A stretch of DNA of 64,000 bases from Eledone cirrhosa (Eukaryota): positions 9,052,001 to 9,116,000 of the forward strand of contig OZ024755.1 of NCBI GenBank assembly GCA_964016885.1, given 5' to 3'. Shown piece by piece: positions 8,376-54,807 of this stretch. A program made the position numbers and the translations under genes. The notes beneath the pieces are model-generated. The model was given only the letters and a program-made list of their open reading frames with translations. It searched no databases and had not been told where the DNA came from. The stretch's first letter is position 1. Each line of letters starts with the position of its first letter.

Positions 8376-9025
8376 CCAATGCTTTGTCGATTGCAAGAAA
8401 GAATGTGACATGACATTCTCTCACAATTTCAATGAAGTCGATACGAATAAGACACTCGGCCTTCATTTAATCCTTCTTTTCTAAGAAGCACAGCTTGTCA
8501 TGAACACGATAGTGAGATGGGTTTCATGACAGGCGCTTAAGGCGTATATTTGCCATCAACTGCCAAGATTATGTCGATAATGCAAAAGTGTACATACTGT
8601 CAGGATAAAGAAATCTCCACCTAAAATTCCACATATCATTACTGAGATAGTTAGGCTGCCAAATACGCCACCCGCACAGCAACATATACTCACATTGTAA
8701 ATCGTTCGACCATATAAATGTGAGGACAACAACGAATATGAGAATTTGTAGAACATAATAAAATACTGATAACTAGCATTCTTTAATTATGAAACGAAAT
8801 AAATGTACCACCAACGAATATTTTGGGATGCAATATTTCTTCTCCCACGGAGAATGAACTACTGGAGTTAAATAAAATATACAAGCAATATAGTTATTTT
8901 TTAACGTAGCCAGTATCTTCTCTGTATATGAGTGCCGGAATATCACAGATATATATATATCTGTGATATTCCGGAATATCACAGATATATATATAGAAGG
9001 GGTTACACAACAATTAGTTCACCAT

Positions 9026-9067
9026 ACCGAGAACAATTGTTTCACCTTAGCGGATCCTCAGCTCGGT
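9026..9067 (-). ncRNA. Complete type I hammerhead ribozyme in an inverted-repeat element (8994-9198)
   Basis: ACCGAG-CTGAGGA-T-CC-gctaa-GG-T-GAAA-C-aatt-GTT-CTCGGT: 6-bp stem I, palindromic stem III ACAATTGT, GUU site. Confidence 0.8.
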
Positions 9068-9241
9068 GGGGATCTGCTAAGGTGAAACAATTGTTCTCGG
9101 TATGGTGAACTAACTGTTGTGTAACCACTTCTACCTAACTCGTCTCATGGACTGAGTGCTCTACCACTACGGATATTACCTTCCAGTGTTCTAACACTAT
9201 ATATATATATATATGTGTATGTATATATTTAATATAGAAAG

Positions 9242-9290
9242 GCTTCTACAGGACTAGAACTGTTTCATTCGGGAGAAATCATCAGGAAGC
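9242..9290 (-). ncRNA. Complete hammerhead ribozyme, family A (element 9228-9425)
   Basis: GCTTC-CTGATGA-T-TTC-tccc-GAA-T-GAA-ACAG-ttctagtc-CTGT-A-GAAGC; GUA site. Confidence 0.8.
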
Positions 9291-9337
9291 TTACTGATGA
9301 TTTCTCCCGAATGAAACAGTTCTAGTCCTGTAGAAGC
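9289..9337 (+). ncRNA. Second, oppositely oriented family A hammerhead
   Basis: Inverted copy of 9242-9290 with one stem I mismatch next to the core. Confidence 0.7.
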
Positions 9338-9528
9338 CTTTCTATATTAAATATTTATACTCTGCTTTGTATTGAGTACCTTACTTACTGTGGTTTACCC
9401 CGATTGAACCCGAGATAAACTTATGTATATATATATATATACGAAATATAAACGGAAACGACAAAGCAAACAACACAATATAATGTACATATATATTAGT
9501 TTAATTCTTGATATAATAGGGAAAAAGA

Positions 9529-13159: not shown

Positions 13160-13185
13160 TTAAAACAACATTGTTTTAACCGTTT

Positions 13186-13368
13186 GGTGGATTGGCAGTA
13201 TCGGTAGAGGGTCGGACGCCATGCTTTCCAGCATAGTTACGTCCCTTTACGATCTGAGTTCAAATCCCGCCGAGGTTGACTTTGCCTTTCATCCTTACGG
13301 GGTCGATAAAATAAAGTACCAGTAATGCACTGGGTAATTGCTGGCCTTGTGCCAAAAGTAGAAACAAT
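13186..13368 (+). mobile_element. SINE family 1, young short subfamily
   Basis: Near-identical to 17314-17496 and to the reverse complement of 26817-26999. Confidence 0.9.
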
Positions 13369-17204: not shown

Positions 17205-17590
17205 AAGTGAAATAATAAAATCAAGTCATTAGAGATATACTTCACTGCTTTACGATCGTTTCTAGATGATGATAATACATTGTAGCTATACTCCGTTATT
17301 GATCTATGTAAGGGTGGTGGATTGGCAGTATCGGTAGAGAGTCGGACGCCATGCTTTCCAGCATAGTTACGTCCCTTTACGGTCTGAGTTCAAATCCTGC
17401 CGAGGTTAACTTTGCCTTTCATCCTTACGGGGTCGATAAAATAAAGTACCAGTAATGCACTGGGTAATTGCTGGCCTTGTGCCTAAAGTAGAAACAGTTA
17501 TTGATCTATGTAAGGTTAGTTACAAAATATCAGATAAAGAGAATATTTACTTACATGCATATCACCAGGTGTTTTCAAAAGCTAACTCTA
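17205..17590 (-). mobile_element. Old family D-related hammerhead element interrupted by a SINE
   Basis: Minus strand GCTT-TTGAAAA...CTAGAAACGATCGTA-AAGC resembles 51166-51310 with a decayed core. Confidence 0.55.
17314..17496 (+). mobile_element. Young SINE family 1 insertion with 19-bp target-site duplication
   Basis: GTTATTGATCTATGTAAGG at 17295-17313 and 17497-17515. Confidence 0.95.
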
Positions 17591-21719: not shown

Positions 21720-21791
21720 TGACGTACATAGAAGTCGAACCCACATCTTTGGTTATCCGGACCACTGTGCTACCATTTACACCAACACATC
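21720..21791 (-). pseudogene. tRNA-like cloverleaf (tRNA pseudogene or derivative) inside a TA-flanked element
   Basis: Acceptor GATGTGT/GTACGTC, D arm GTGT/GCAC, anticodon arm TGGT-ccggata-ACCA, T loop TTCGACT, T5 run downstream. Many G-U pairs and a non-canonical anticodon loop. Confidence 0.6.
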
Positions 21792-22039: not shown

Positions 22040-22041
<2 letters not shown>

Positions 22042-22232
22042 CGAAGTAGTTGTGGTAAGGAACCAGATGGACCATAACGCACCAGAGTACTCAATACTTA
22101 GGGTAGTAGAGTGGGTAATAGGAGAAAGTATGAACCCGACGGCAGAGCTCAAGCCGTTTCGACGGCTATTTCTGCTAGTCCAGAAATAGCCGTCGAAACG
22201 GCTTGAGCTCTGCCGTCGGGGTCATACTTTCT

Positions 22233-22237
<5 letters not shown>
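22040..22237 (-). mobile_element. Family B TA-flanked element with inverted 5' duplication and half hammerhead
   Basis: Arms 22118-22174 / 22181-22237; each holds GAA-ACGGC-ttgagctct-GCCGT-C. Confidence 0.85.
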
Positions 22238-26751: not shown

Positions 26752-26816
<65 letters not shown>

Positions 26817-26820
<4 letters not shown>

Positions 26821-26999
26821 GTTTCTATATTTGGCACAAGGCCAGCAATTACCCAGTACATTGCTGGTACTTTATTTTATTGACCCCGTAAGGATGAAAG
26901 GCAAAGTTAACCTCGGTGGGATTTGAACTCAGACCGTAAAGGGACATAACTATGCTGGAAAGCATGGTGTCCGACCCTCTACCAATACTGCCAATCCAC
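26817..26999 (-). mobile_element. SINE family 1, young short subfamily
   Basis: Reverse complement of 13186-13368 with few changes. Confidence 0.9.
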
Positions 27000-31351: not shown

Positions 31352-31542
31352 TTATATATATATATATAGTTTTAGCTTCCCGTCCCCACGTAAAATTTAT
31401 AAATCAGTGGCTAGTTGAGAGATAGAGTCCTATCGGGTGCCAGTTGCTAATAGCTTTACCGTGTCAGTCGTCACAAACAGTCATGGCCGGCATAGACTGG
31501 TCTTAGGATTCTCTCGATCGATTGGTTATTGATTAGGCGATA

Positions 31543-31652
31543 CCCGCTGATGAAGCCGCATAAGCCGATTGTGCATTGTTGCATAATATATGCAGACAGA
31601 TGGTGCAGTGCACCTTATTGCTGCATTAGTGCGGCAGAAACTCGAGTCCGGG
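31543..31652 (+). ncRNA. Complete hammerhead with about 80-nt structured stem II (family C, element about 31370-31790)
   Basis: CCCG-CTGATGA-A-GCCGCA...TGCGGC-A-GAAA-C-tcga-GTC-CGGG; inner helices GTGCATTGT/GCAGTGCAC and TGCATA/TATGCA. Confidence 0.85.
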
Positions 31653-31797
31653 AACCTTATAGGCACCCGTTTTACGTGTGTTGTGTTGAAGCAAATAACT
31701 TTGTGTATACTCTGGGAATGTATCTTACATTGCCCATGGAGTGGAGTGCGCTGAGATACAACCGGTCCTGGCATTGATAAATAATTATTATATATAT

Positions 31798-31841: not shown

Positions 31842-32011
31842 ATAGGAAACAGTATGACCCCGACGGCAGAGCTCAAGCCGTTTCGACGGCTATTTCTGGG
31901 TCATACTGCCGTCGGGGGTCATACTTTTTCCTATTTCCCACTCTACTACCCTAAGTATTGAGTACTCTGGCGTGTTATGGTCCATCTGGTTCCTTACCAC
32001 AATTCCTTTGT

Positions 32012-36200: not shown

Positions 36201-36621
36201 TGTGTTGGAGTTGGGTAATAGTGGAAGATGGGTGGCGTTGGAGATTGGTGGGGCGTGGATGTTGATGGATGATGGATGGTGGTGTTAGATGATAATGGTT
36301 AGTGTTTGTGTTGGAAGTGATGGTGGATAGCTGTAAGTAGTGATGATGGTTTCGATGTTTTCGTAGTATAATAGGTAATGGTGATAAGTGTTGGTTGAAA
36401 GATGGTGGAGGGTGCCACCTGGTGGTGAAATACGGGCTGGGTTGCTGAGTTAGGATTATAAAACATCAAAATAATACGAATAAATATAAAAAATAGACAG
36501 AAATAATAAAGTAAATAAAACCTGCAACACTTGGTATGGGTTTTACTTGGACGTGAAACTGTTCTTATCATGTTCTTATGTTTCACTCATCATTGGATGT
36601 TGGATGAGTATGTGTGTCCTG

Positions 36622-36727: not shown

Positions 36728-36812
36728 AATGAGATGAGCGGAACAAGCAAAATTTAAACAATCTTTCAAAATAAATTCAAAATACAATTTAAATATTTAG
36801 CCATCCATATTG

Positions 36813-36890
36813 CTTTTACCGACGGTTTCGCCTCACAAAAGATTGGAAATCCAAGGGACTTCCAATGGAAAGATCGTACTCTTCAGAAAG
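36813..36890 (-). ncRNA. Hammerhead with about 50-nt stem II region
   Basis: CTTT-CTGAAGA-GT...TTGGAAGTCC-ctt-GGATTTCCAA...GC-GAA-ACCG-t-CGGT-A-AAAG. Confidence 0.7.
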
Positions 36891-36918
36891 TATTTTCCCT
36901 TATATAGAACATATAGTT

Positions 36919-39593: not shown

Positions 39594-40205
39594 CAGGTCA
39601 CCAGTTGGTGCTACTGGTAACATGTATCCCAGTACAACCTGTCCCATGGTCGGGTCGTTGGCGACTAAACTGGCAACCCCACCAAGGTTTCTTGGTGAGG
39701 AGGGTGACTTTGGACATCCTGCAGGACTAAAAACAAAACCTGTCAAAGGGCAAAGGAGCTCTTAAGAGTCAATGGCCATCCAAAATCACCGGGAGAGATG
39801 ACCCCTTAGCCTTTGTCAAGGCAGAATTCTAGGAGAAGGAAAACTCTGATATAACACCTGCAACCCTGATGGTATCCAATGATGTTGACTTGTTCTTCTT
39901 TTTGGTAAATATCATCTTGGTTAAGAGAGTGGGACTGGCTTTGTGCAGTGCCTTTGCTCACTATAAAAGCTTCACGGCACAGGCATTGCTTTATATCTGG
40001 AGATCTCTCTGCACTTGTCGTCACATGGTACCATGGGCCCAGCACTATGTGTCAGTAATTGTCACAAGTGTAGTGTTTGTACCAGAGTTTTCAAGTCGCT
40101 GGCTGGACTAAAAAGTCACACTCGTTCAGCGCATCGGTAGGGGTTCTCCTACATGGATATAAAGTAGTGGCCGTACTCGAAAACGAGTTGGCAGCCACCA
40201 TGTAT
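39594..40205 (+). mobile_element. Non-autonomous RTE-derived element retaining the terminal C2H2 zinc-finger codons
   Basis: 40063-40140 reads HKCSVCTRVFKSLAGLKSHTRSAHR*, like RTE ORF C-termini; (ATGT)n on both sides. Confidence 0.7.
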
Positions 40206-47249: not shown

Positions 47250-47596
47250 TCAGGTAGGAGTCGATTTAATCGACTCCCTTACATTATATCATCGATCATG
47301 CAAGGATGAAAGGCACAGTTGATCTAAGTGGGATTTGAACTCTGACCGTAAAGAGCCGAAACAAAAACCGCTAGAAATTTGCCTGACTCACAGACAATTC
47401 TGCTAATCCACTATACTTAATTTCACTTCTATCACAATTGTTTCTACTTTTGGCACAAGACCAGCAATTATCCAAGTGTATTACTGGTACTTTATTTTAT
47501 CTACCCCGTAAGGATGAAAGGCAAAGTTAACCTCGGCGGGATTTGAACTCAGACCATAAAGGGCCGTAACTCTTTGCTGCAAAGCATGCCAATCCA
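47250..47596 (-). mobile_element. Two tandem family 1 SINEs (old 47250-47412, young 47436-47596)
   Basis: The young copy is flanked by TCTATCA repeats (47428 and 47597). Confidence 0.8.
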
Positions 47597-49457: not shown

Positions 49458-49887
49458 AGGCGGTGTGGCATTGAGATGTGCCAGCTTGTATTCTTTTAGT
49501 GTAAACTATTGCTGGGATTTCTCGGGGAGAGCACCAAATACCTCTCTACTATGTACGTTTAGTAAAGTGTTATTTGTGTGCCTTCGCTCTTGTAACACGA
49601 CAGGGGCCTCTTCGGTTGTTCTCGGCCTATTTGTAGAAGCCGAGAGAGATGAGGGTGACGAGTTAGCAGGAGCCAGTTCGTATTTCTGTGGGAATCACCT
49701 TATGGCGTATGTGTGTAAAAAAATAGACGACCTCACATTCATTTACATCATATACTGCAGTGCAGCGATACGCACATACGTATGAACACACAGATACATA
49801 CATACACACACACACGCGCACACACAAACACAGAAACAGATACACAGACACAGACACACACACACATATATATATGTATATATATAT

Positions 49888-50055
49888 AAGTTATTCCGGG
49901 TTGAATCGGAGGTAACCACAGTAAGTAAGGTACTCAATACATAGCAGAGCATAAACGTTTTAATATAGAAGAGCTTCTACATGACTAGAACTGTTTCATT
50001 CGTGAGAATTCATCCACGAATGAAACAGTTCTAGTCCTGTATAAGCTCTTCTATA
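49888..50055 (-). mobile_element. Family A element with inversion junction inside the hammerhead core
   Basis: Minus strand GATGA-ATTC-tcac-GAAT-GAAACAG..; inverted partial copy at 50015-50055. Confidence 0.85.
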
Positions 50056-50096
50056 TATGTATATATATATATATATATATATAAAGAATATTTTCG

Positions 50097-50184: not shown

Positions 50185-50345
50185 ATACATATATTTAAAT
50201 ATGATTAAAAGTTTAACAAGGTTCAATGAATTAATCAATGAATAAAGTTTCACAATAGATTAAAAGCACTCTACAAAGAGGTTTTCTGCAGTTATTAATA
50301 TTACTTCAAAATATTAATAAATATAGACATTGATGTGATCAAATA

Positions 50346-50411
50346 TATTTTATTATACATATTTCAGAGGTACTGAGATATTTCAACAGTACGTCCTCAT
50401 CAGATAAAATA
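50346..50411 (-). ncRNA. Complete hammerhead (element about 50198-50475)
   Basis: TATTTTAT-CTGATGA-GGACGTACTG-11 nt-CAGTACCTCT-GAA-ATA-tg-TAT-A-ATAAAATA: 8-bp stem I, AUA site. Confidence 0.8.
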
Positions 50412-50476
50412 AGTTGATGCCAGACATACCTTGACTATGTTGATGGTTATAATTCAGTCATGGCAGTCATTTTCAA

Positions 50477-50833: not shown

Positions 50834-50928
<95 letters not shown>

Positions 50929-50978
50929 TAAACAAATAATGAACAAACAATTCCTTATATTAAACAAAAAAAGTTCAC

Positions 50979-51123
50979 TATTTAACGATCGTTTCTAGGG
51001 CATATATGTGCTATAATTGGTATGCATATTTAACAGATCTATGTACAAAATTATACAAAATTATACAAATTATCAAGATTAAATATACATACCTAACTCA
51101 TATATACGCCGTCTTCAGAAATA
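50979..51123 (-). ncRNA. Family D hammerhead, inverted copy
   Basis: Reverse complement of 51166-51310. Confidence 0.75.
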
Positions 51124-51165
51124 ATCAGAAATAATTATTTCAGAAATAATTATTTCTGAAATAAT

Positions 51166-51310
51166 TATTTCTGAAGACGGCGTATATATGAGTTAGGTAT
51201 GTATATTTAATCTTGATAATTTGTATAATTTTGTATAATTTTGTACATAGATCTGTTAAATATGCATACCAATTATAGCACATATATGCCCTAGAAACGA
51301 TCGTTAAATA
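51166..51310 (+). ncRNA. Family D hammerhead with about 115-nt stem II region
   Basis: TATTT-CTGAAGA-C-GGCGTATATATG...CACATATATGCC-cta-GAAA-C-gatc-GTT-AAATA. Confidence 0.75.
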
Positions 51311-51500
51311 GTGAACTTTTTTTGTTTAATATAAGGAATTGTTTGTTCATTATTTGTTTAATATTTTATCTTGACTCTGTATACCGTTTATCTTTCACCG
51401 AAATTGGATTTTCATTACATCTCTTCTTTCCATGATATCCGGAATACATTGAGTTCTTCATACGGATTGGACACTACCGTAAACTCTTGGTAGATTTATC

Positions 51501-51540
<40 letters not shown>

Positions 51541-51627
51541 TTAAATATACATACCTAACTCATATATACGCCGTCTTCAGAAATAATCAGAAATAATTAT
51601 TTCAGAAATAATTATTTCAGAAATAAT

Positions 51628-51772
51628 TATTTCTGAAGACGGCGTATATATGAGTTAGGTATGTATATTTAATCTTGATAATTTGTATAATTTTGTATAA
51701 TTTTGTACATAGATCTGTTAAATATGCATACCAATTATAGCACATATATGCCCTAGAAACGATCGTTAAATA
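51628..51772 (+). ncRNA. Family D hammerhead, tandem copy
   Basis: Same sequence as 51166-51310. Confidence 0.75.
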
Positions 51773-51962
51773 GTGAACTTTTTTTGTTTAATATAAGGAA
51801 TTGTTTGTTCATTATTTGTTTAATATTTTATCTTGACTCTGTATACCGTTTATCTTTCACCGAAATTGGATTTTCATTACATCTCTTCTTTCCATGATAT
51901 CCGGAATACATTGAGTTCTTCATACGGATTGGACACTACCGTAAACTCTTGGTAGATTTATC

Positions 51963-52042
<80 letters not shown>

Positions 52043-54463: not shown

Positions 54464-54592
54464 AGTTGATTGAACTAGCAGCACCGGTTGCATCTCAGCG
54501 TACTCAATAGGTAATGTTATGTAAGCTCCCAGAGTAGACACATAGTTATTCGCTTCAATACAACATACGTAAATGTGAACCTTCAATCTATA

Positions 54593-54703
54593 CCTGTACT
54601 CGAGTTTCGGCGACACTTAATGCAGCAATAGAGTGCATAGCATCTACTGTCTGCATTGATTATGCAACAATGCACAATAGGCGCATGTGGCTTCATCAGC
54701 GGG
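54593..54703 (-). ncRNA. Family C hammerhead, diverged copy (element about 54462-54725)
   Basis: CCCG-CTGATGA-A-GCCACA...TGTCGC-C-GAAA-C-tcga-GTA-CAGG. Confidence 0.75.
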
Positions 54704-54723
54704 TTTCACCTAATCAATAACCA

Positions 54724-54807
<84 letters not shown>

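What the first reader, a model, noticed from the sequence alone, without database searches (positions are those of the whole stretch)
50921..51965. Triple-hammerhead locus: inverted plus tandem copies with about 115-nt stem II (family D)
Seen: two near-perfect arms of about 200 bp, each holding a full HHR on opposite strands, then a third HHR about 460 bp downstream in the same orientation as the second. Established: tandem HHRs release monomers that can circularise, and palindromic stem III (ACGATCGT) permits dimeric cleavage. Inference: a + strand transcript could release an RNA of about 460 nt between 51305 and 51767, while the inverted arms would give long dsRNA. The two tandem copies differ at one base in the centre repeat.
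Basis: partly seen in the sequence, partly recalled or inferred. Interest (0 to 1): 0.8.

Follow-up and report, generated by a model that had tools for sequence, protein, structure and literature searches.

The report
Penelope-type fold-back insertion, self-blocked hammerheads
Three copies of a self-cutting RNA motif sit in a mirror-image-plus-tandem arrangement that is likely the stump of a common Penelope-type jumping gene; the mirror arms are predicted to block the cutting, so a small RNA circle is unlikely, though related copies show possible RNA editing inside the motif's core.

Summary
There are three type I hammerhead motifs (51118 −, 51171 +, 51633 +), exact 206-nt inverted arms, and a 462-bp duplicate differing at one base, all in (TA)n.

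The circle reading is not supported.

Reads show a very high-copy family. Most copies continue upstream, other loci turn at the same base (51164), and (TA)-joined ends occur at 51369 and about 51502. One inverted plus two direct repeats, a junction palindrome, a one-sided tail and a microsatellite target are the published layout of Penelope-like element (PLE) insertions. No RT/GIY-YIG ORF was found, so membership is inferred.

Two points depart from the papers I read. Stem II is 116 nt with C·A at its base instead of G10.1–C11.1. One run of unrecorded type shows 22–36% A>G at four stem sites, including A11.1 and A15.1, almost absent from two comparison runs; this looks like ADAR editing but is unproven.

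Whether the tandem copy is real was not testable. Interest 0.3.

The parts
50837..50922 (.). (TA)n run, 86 nt; left part of the likely target microsatellite
50920..51125 (-). Inverted arm, exact reverse complement of 51164-51369; holds a full hammerhead motif on the minus strand (50977-51125, core at 51118-51112); lacks the 135-nt tail
51126..51163 (.). Head-to-head junction: 38 nt built of 10-18-nt pieces of the arm end, including an 18-bp palindrome at 51141-51158
   Evidence: one X1 contig matches 51100-51164 exactly at depth 12.3 (X1 may be the source sample, and the record has under 31 letters on the outer sides)
51164..51312 (+). Type I hammerhead motif, copy 1: stem I 51164-51170/51306-51312, core 51171-51177, 116-nt AU-rich stem II 51178-51293 with C.A at its base, GAAA 51294-51297, stem III 51297-51304, GUU cut site after 51305
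51306..51355 (+). Predicted 11-bp hairpin whose 3' strand repeats the stem I 5' strand and competes for stem I (raises the cost of the hammerhead fold from 4.1 to 8.5-10.1 kcal/mol)
51370..51504 (+). 135-nt extension ('tail') present on the direct copies only
   Evidence: (TA)-joined ends at 51369 (one low-depth X5 contig) and 51502 (one X4 contig)
51504..51537 (.). (TA)17 spacer between the two units
51538..51587 (-). Short 50-nt inverted arm of unit 2; antisense to stem I, core and first part of stem II of hammerhead copy 2
51588..51625 (.). Second junction; differs from the first at one base (A51619 vs T51157)
51626..51774 (+). Hammerhead motif, copy 2, identical to copy 1; cut site after 51767; predicted to be blocked by the short arm
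51832..51966 (+). Second copy of the 135-nt tail, identical to the first
51966..52039 (.). (TA)n run, 74 nt; right part of the likely target microsatellite

Best explanation
This is likely a non-coding, 5'-truncated insertion of the hammerhead-bearing terminal repeat (pLTR) of a high-copy Penelope-like retroelement family, laid down as one inverted plus two direct copies in a (TA)n run, and its hammerheads are predicted to be blocked by their own inverted arms. Inferred mechanism: (1) a PLE RT/GIY-YIG protein supplied in trans nicked the (TA)n run and reverse-transcribed an uncut family RNA from about 51504 back through the hammerhead to 51164; (2) the cDNA end turned back on itself through the AT-rich self-complementary end, stuttering several times (the 38-nt junction), and copied itself out to 51369, where it was joined to the target, giving an exact mirror arm without the tail; (3) a later local event (DNA template switch at the palindrome/TA run, or re-insertion of a transcript of this locus) duplicated 51076-51537. 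Shown: the anatomy, the high copy number, the recurrence of the turning point and of (TA)-joined ends. Predicted: the block of self-cleavage. Inferred: PLE parentage and each step of the insertion.
For: Anatomy. Family: 1134 contigs of X1 and 4455 reads of X17 lay on 51100-51505; summed X1 depth is about 1e5-7e5 on the arm and tail, against 3-12 for single junction contigs (the tool warns that depth is no copy number, so this is an order-of-magnitude reading). Truncation: 440 X17 reads continue upstream of 51164 with other, mutually similar sequence (agreement 0.78, against 0.34 at two random-flank positions). Turning point: 5 of 9 listed joints have an arm ending within 2 nt of 51164, with different spacers. 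Both arms and both direct copies are identical although this locus carries minority alleles (e.g. G51278, G51288, C51289, G51311 are replaced in about 85-98% of X17 reads), so the arms were copied from one template. Structure kept across the family: of 16 DNA variants examined in the hammerhead span, 5 are at unpaired sites and 8 of the 11 at paired sites keep the pair, including G51182-C51289 to A-U (variants unphased, no shuffle control). [quoted passage not shown] Unrelated fold-back inserts in (TA)n with a hammerhead core at the axis occur at 8990-9137 and 9217-9362.
Against: No RT or GIY-YIG match in 19 long ORFs or in 150 of 156 complex stop-to-stop frames scanned against Pfam, and no genome is held, so no autonomous partner was seen. 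The tail is 135 nt, against 30-40 bp in print. The G10.1-C11.1 pair called highly conserved in PLE hammerheads is not met. 3 of 11 paired-site variants break the minimum-energy pair (one of them, 51179, improves a pair in the in-line register). Joints at 51164 are easier to see because 26 nt of the left arm were in the reference, and one inversion joint lies elsewhere (51243/51371). No target-site duplication can be read inside (TA)n. X1 may be the assembly's source sample.
Confidence: 0.8

Rival explanations
1. Active non-LTR retrozyme dimer: a + strand transcript is cut after 51305 and 51767, releasing a 462-nt RNA that circularises.
For: Two identical hammerheads 462 nt apart meet the operational definition of a retrozyme (two consecutive units each with a type I hammerhead; bioRxiv 10.64898/2026.07.22.740005, parts 1-3 of 5). 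The palindromic stem III can support a dimer. Co-transcriptional folding or protein help could differ from equilibrium predictions (PMC11167929).
Against: The unit contains locus-specific junk ((TA)17, a 50-nt antisense arm, a stutter centre) instead of a clean family monomer. The antisense arm is transcribed before the core it blocks, so co-transcriptional folding would not rescue it. The costs are +55, +70 and +229 kcal/mol, and +26 even with the arm forbidden to pair. In the preprint, 8 of 9 predicted dimers tested did not cleave.
Confidence: 0.06
2. The 462-bp second unit is an assembly artefact (collapsed or duplicated read path at a palindrome flanked by TA runs); only the fold-back insert is real. 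This is compatible with the best explanation for unit 1.
For: 461 of 462 bases are identical. Such structures trouble assemblies (PMC8557442). No T>A row at 51157 is among the 40 variant rows shown (19 more were not shown, and contigs drop rare variants).
Against: The two centres differ at one base and the TA runs differ in length (34 vs 74 nt). Tandem insertion next to existing copies is described for PLEs (PMC6765202, passages). The tandem junction was not in the stretch laid, so it is untested.
Confidence: 0.25
3. Two cDNAs primed on opposite strands of the target, one from each RT start site (51369 and about 51504), met head to head at 51164, instead of one cDNA folding back.
For: The anole PLE protein nicks and extends both strands, uses two start sites and is predicted to be a dimer (PMC11167929). 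The palindromic stem III could hold two RNAs together. One X1 joint links an arm ending near 51162 to a copy starting at 51445, which fits two separately truncated cDNAs.
Against: It needs two identical minority-allele templates both ending at 51164. The junction is made of self-copied pieces of the arm end, which snap-back explains directly.
Confidence: 0.2
4. A MITE or a DNA-repair hairpin unrelated to retrotransposition, with the hammerhead as a passenger or a chance motif.
For: Long perfect inverted repeats in a TA context, with no coding sequence.
Against: The arms are unequal, most family reads continue upstream instead of folding back, spacers vary between loci, and variants mostly keep the hammerhead stems. 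The motif does not arise in shuffles.
Confidence: 0.06

Closest known systems
EN+ Penelope-like element insertions with one inverted and two direct pLTRs (Arkhipova et al. 2013, PMC3846280; Craig et al. 2021, PMC8557442; passages read)
   Same: Head-to-head inverted copy, 18-bp palindrome at the junction, tail on one arm only, direct repeat downstream, (TA)n target, hammerhead within the repeat.
   Different: No ORF between the direct copies; the tail is 135 nt instead of 30-40; the downstream copy includes part of the inverted arm and the junction, so it was copied from this locus.
PLE hammerheads (Cervera and de la Pena 2014, PMC4209133; sections 5 and 9 and passages read)
   Same: Type I, short palindromic stem III suited to dimers, an extra nucleotide after A9, opposite-strand pairs within 100-700 bp.
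   Different: Stem II spans 116 nt (7-8 bp in the S. mansoni families described there); G10.1-C11.1 does not abut G12 (C.A in line, or a UA bulge). The paper's supplementary alignments were not seen and may hold similar variants.
Metazoan non-LTR retrozymes (Cervera and de la Pena 2020, PMC7229834, passages; Li et al. 2026 bioRxiv 10.64898/2026.07.22.740005, parts 1-3 of 5)
   Same: Non-coding, type I hammerhead in each of two direct units 462 bp apart; proposed PLE origin; a weak base of helix II is also known (U.U in axolotl HHR_Amex2).
   Different: The unit is not a clean family monomer and carries its own antisense blocker; no circle is predicted.
ADAR hyper-editing of repeats, including lizard Penelope and palindromic frog Harbinger (Porath et al. 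2017, PMC5625713, passages read)
   Same: A>G changes in a self-folding repeat, with no G 5' of any of the four sites.
   Different: Two candidate sites are hammerhead core positions (11.1 and 15.1). Two searches (listings only) returned no paper whose title or abstract start reports natural editing of a hammerhead core.

Membership tests
Type I hammerhead ribozyme | Core C3-U4-G5-A6-N7-G8-A9, G12-A13-A14, A15.1-U16.1, H17 | tested here: met
   All three copies. None of the 40 variant rows shown reaches 5% at these positions in X1 or X17; 19 rows were not shown.
Type I hammerhead ribozyme | Stems I, II and III can form around the core | tested here: met
   7-bp stem I, long stem II, 2-bp stem III; 4.1 kcal/mol above the minimum-energy fold for the isolated motif, within the 2.2-8.6 range of four other motifs in the window.
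Type I hammerhead ribozyme | G10.1-C11.1 pair at the base of stem II | tested here: not met
   C51178 faces A51293 in line; A51293 is kept in 1903 of 1906 X17 reads, so this is family-wide and not decay of this copy.
Type I hammerhead ribozyme | Match to an Rfam hammerhead model | tested here: not met
   No hit at gathering or at E up to 10; the 116-nt stem II probably defeats the models (inference).
Type I hammerhead ribozyme | Self-cleavage after H17 | not testable with these tools
   Needs an in vitro assay or RNA end mapping.
Penelope-like element (EN+) pLTR insertion | Direct and inverted pLTRs, head-to-head junction with a palindrome | tested here: met
   compare PMC3846280.
Penelope-like element (EN+) pLTR insertion | Optional 3' tail, two alternative 3' ends | tested here: inconclusive
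   Ends at 51369 and 51504 in this locus; each recurs joined to (TA)n in one contig of another run (X5, X4). The length, 135 nt, is longer than published.
Penelope-like element (EN+) pLTR insertion | Dispersed high-copy, 5'-truncated family in AT-rich or microsatellite targets | tested here: met
   depth, loose ends; TA flanks.
Penelope-like element (EN+) pLTR insertion | Telomerase-like RT plus GIY-YIG ORF linked to the repeat | not testable with these tools
   Absent from this locus and from the window frames scanned; no genome held. Linkage elsewhere is unknown, so it is filed as 'likely PLE-derived'.
Non-LTR retrozyme | Two or more consecutive units each with a type I hammerhead | tested here: met
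   Period 462, if the duplicate is real.
Non-LTR retrozyme | Both hammerheads able to fold and release a monomer | tested here: not met
   By prediction only: +70 to +229 kcal/mol.
Non-LTR retrozyme | Abundant monomeric circular RNA | not testable with these tools
   Needs RNase R and divergent RT-PCR.

The most novel reading that the evidence does not exclude
The family's hammerhead is an ADAR-gated ribozyme. Its 116-nt AU-rich stem II is a built-in ADAR landing helix; editing A51293 (UAG context, opposite C51178) would create the missing pair at the base of stem II and favour the active fold, while editing A51297 (A15.1) would switch it off, so host editing would set the cleavage of a very abundant retroelement RNA. 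Basis: 36% and 35% A>G at these two sites in run X4 (26 and 20 contigs) against 0 in X1 and 3 of 1906 and 2 of 1915 reads in X17; a G-for-inosine fold moves the motif only about 1 kcal/mol toward the active state. I put the chance that the A>G signal is real editing at about 0.65; the probability given is for functional gating.
Probability: 0.08. Interest if true: 0.75.

Novelty: new member of a known kind. Interest (0 to 1): 0.3.

Why it matters
The locus itself is an ordinary fossil of Penelope-type insertion. It is still a clean record of the unresolved PLE fold-back step: the turning point recurs at the 5' edge of hammerhead stem I with different spacers, which makes snap-back versus two-primer models testable in a genome with very many copies. 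The family adds a hammerhead form with a very long stem II and a non-canonical base pair that Rfam misses. If the A>G signal proves to be editing that changes cleavage, it would link ADAR to control of a natural ribozyme, which I did not find in two literature searches.

Tried and rejected
No genome is held for this window, so no copy census, no ORF linkage and no flank comparison were possible.

An exact 21-base motif scan found 0 loci in metagenome contigs and 0 in viral contigs. Self-BLAST found no other copy of this family in the window.

Pfam on 19 long ORFs gave no hit. Pfam on 150 of 156 complex frames gave no hit above a curated cut-off and nothing RT- or GIY-YIG-like; the 6 frames beyond 61000 were left out, one of them already covered.

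Run search: no RNA holder listed. X5 (organism B) gave only 3 contigs; the two covering the hammerhead's 3' half have depth about 3 and are nearly identical to this locus, so carry-over cannot be excluded and cross-species presence is not claimed.

A test of kinds of change (A>G 10 of 34 places in X4 vs 5 of 34 in X1) was not significant, p = 0.24. The editing lead rests on the 4 of 40 shown rows that are specific to X4, all A>G.

Rfam miRNA hits are far below gathering and reflect hairpins. The sigma-70 scan is irrelevant to a eukaryote.

Lünse et al. 2017 (PMC5785218) is not held; its dimer result is taken from a review passage. Searches for 'long stem II' and 'fold-back' returned 0 papers, which is weak because matching is literal. 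No supplements were read; those of PMC4209133 and PMC8557442 may hold similar hammerheads.

Earlier-findings look-ups by sequence and by place were empty. The host was not identified.

Full report
OBSERVATION. The window is AT-rich non-coding DNA with many (TA)n runs; the host was not identified and no genome is held. Between TA runs at 50837-50922 and 51966-52039 lie a left arm 50920-51125, which is the exact reverse complement of 51164-51369; a 38-nt junction; a right arm running on to 51504; (TA)17; and a duplicate of 51076-51537 at 51538-51999 with one difference, T51157/A51619. Three identical type I hammerhead motifs follow from this, at 51118(-), 51171(+) and 51633(+). Each has a 7-bp stem I, 116 nt of stem II, a palindromic stem III ACGAUCGU and a GUU triplet; the + strand cuts would fall after 51305 and 51767. 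No such motif arose in 60 local shuffles, and the region folds at z = -4.6. Rfam does not detect it.

The duplicate begins inside the left arm, so unit 2 carries a 50-nt antisense arm (51538-51587) just upstream of its own hammerhead. That arm pairs with stem I, the core and the start of stem II at predicted probability about 1.0; forming the hammerhead costs +55 kcal/mol, and +177 for copy 1 within both long arms. Both + strand hammerheads in one transcript cost +70 kcal/mol (start at 51164) or +229 (read-through). A downstream 11-bp hairpin (51306-51355) also competes for stem I. The isolated motif is only 4.1 kcal/mol from its hammerhead fold, like four other motifs in the window (2.2-8.6), and its dimeric form is favourable against two monomers but not against the best non-hammerhead dimer. 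So the motif is plausible as a dimer-type hammerhead in other copies, but a 462-nt circle from this locus is unlikely. These are equilibrium predictions.

THE FAMILY. Four of 19 listed runs were laid on 51100-51505. X1 (organism A, possibly the assembly's source) gave 1134 contigs with summed depth of about 1e5-7e5 on arm and tail, against 3-12 for single junction contigs; X17 (same species label, RAD-seq raw reads, another study) gave 4455 reads. This indicates a very high-copy family, with the tool's caveat that depth is no copy number. In X17, 440 reads run on upstream of 51164 into other shared sequence, so this locus is 5'-truncated at the first base of stem I. Five of nine listed joints have an arm ending within 2 nt of 51164, with different spacers; one inversion lies elsewhere (51243/51371) and three are internal skips. 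The reference included 26 nt of the left arm, which favours detection at this axis. (TA)-joined ends appear at 51502 (one X4 contig) and 51369 (one low-depth X5 contig). This locus carries minority alleles shared by all three copies, so they derive from one template. Of 16 DNA variants examined in the hammerhead span, 5 are unpaired, 8 keep their pair (one G-C to A-U double change, several G.U to A-U) and 3 break the minimum-energy pair (unphased, no control). A51293 is fixed in DNA (1903 of 1906 reads), so the C.A at the base of stem II is a family trait.

MECHANISM. Shown: anatomy, family size, recurrent turning point. Inferred: target-primed reverse transcription by a PLE protein in trans at (TA)n, from about 51504 through an uncut hammerhead to 51164; snap-back of the cDNA with several stutters, leaving a junction made of pieces of the arm end including an 18-bp palindrome; copying out to 51369; and a later local duplication of 462 bp. 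A two-primer route is the main mechanistic rival (0.2). The duplicate could be an assembly artefact (0.25); its junction was not in the stretch laid.

COMPARISON. Two direct plus one inverted pLTR, a tail on one arm and an 18-bp junction palindrome read as self-priming are described for rotifer Penelope (PMC3846280, passages). Inverted 5'-truncated copies, tails and (TA)n targets are general to EN+ PLEs (PMC8557442, passages). Opposite-strand hammerhead pairs, palindromic stem III and an extra base after A9 are known PLE-hammerhead traits, but so is a conserved G10.1-C11.1, which is not met here (PMC4209133, sections 5 and 9 and passages). The anole PLE uses two RT start sites and mainly uncut RNA (PMC11167929, parts 1-2 of 4). 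Animal retrozymes are proposed to be pLTR derivatives, and 8 of 9 predicted dimers tested did not cleave (bioRxiv 10.64898/2026.07.22.740005, parts 1-3 of 5). No RT or GIY-YIG fragment was found in the frames scanned, so PLE membership is likely but not shown. Other, unrelated fold-back inserts with a hammerhead core at the axis lie at 8990-9137 and 9217-9362, so the pattern is common in this genome.

EDITING LEAD. Run X4 (organism A, another sample, kind not on record, 88 million letters of contigs) shows A>G at 51210 (35%), 51286 (22%), 51293 (36%) and 51297 (35%). X1 shows 0-0.04% and X17 0-0.6% at the same sites. These are the only X4-specific rows among the 40 shown (19 hidden), all four are A>G on the hammerhead-sense strand, none has a 5' G, and all four are paired in the minimum-energy fold, in which the core mispairs as an extension of stem II. 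This fits ADAR editing of family transcripts. Against it: X4 is not recorded as RNA, there is no DNA run of the same individual, and the test on kinds of change is not significant (p = 0.24). X4 has no depth on the junction, so the signal concerns the family and not this locus. Editing of Penelope and of palindromic repeats is known (PMC5625713, passages). Two searches showed no report of editing in a natural hammerhead core (listings only). Modelling inosine as G at 51293 shifts the fold only about 1 kcal/mol toward the active state, and a change at A15.1 is expected to harm catalysis (recalled, not from a call), so bystander editing is more likely than gating.

VERDICT. The feature is real and most likely an ordinary Penelope-type pLTR insertion with a local duplicate; the circle hypothesis is not supported. 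New member of a known kind, interest 0.3. The long-stem hammerhead form and the possible core editing are the only points worth follow-up.

Noticed in passing
window 8990-9137: Fold-back insert of another family with a hammerhead-like motif (core at 9061, minus strand, palindromic stem III) starting at the axis, in TA flanks.
   Followed up: partly
window 9217-9424 and 49886-50056: Two related fold-back inserts (about 78% alike) of a third family; the first has CUGAUGA on both strands at the axis and a minimal stem III; both have a one-sided tail.
   Followed up: partly
window 22041-22237 and 31845-32011: Two related palindromic inserts with a one-sided tail in TA runs, GC-richer, with a GAAA-stem III-like half but no core at the axis.
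   Followed up: no
window 31520-31790 (+) and 54479-54726 (-): Two copies (78% alike) of another type I hammerhead family with an 83-nt branched stem II, an extra A on each side of its base and palindromic loop III, ending at (TA)n: long stem II and an odd stem base recur across families here.
   Followed up: partly
window 50340-50412 (-) and 36805-36895 (-): Further single hammerhead-like motifs (31-nt and 50-nt stem II); the first lies about 500 bp left of the finding.
   Followed up: partly
window 21720-21791 (-): Weak tRNA match (33 bits); possibly a tRNA-derived SINE head.
   Followed up: no
window 13185-13368, 17315-17512, 26804-26999, 47436-47588 and others: A dispersed 150-200-bp repeat family with many copies at 80-97% identity.
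   Followed up: no
window 36302-36586 (-) and 39967-40137 (+): Sub-threshold Pfam matches to Na/K-ATPase beta chain (E 1.3e-4) and a C2H2 zinc finger (E 6e-5); possible exons or gene remnants.
   Followed up: no
joints 51190 to 51279/51280 in X17: Reads skip about 88 nt of stem II (letters between not known), which suggests subfamilies with a different or shorter stem II interior.
   Followed up: no
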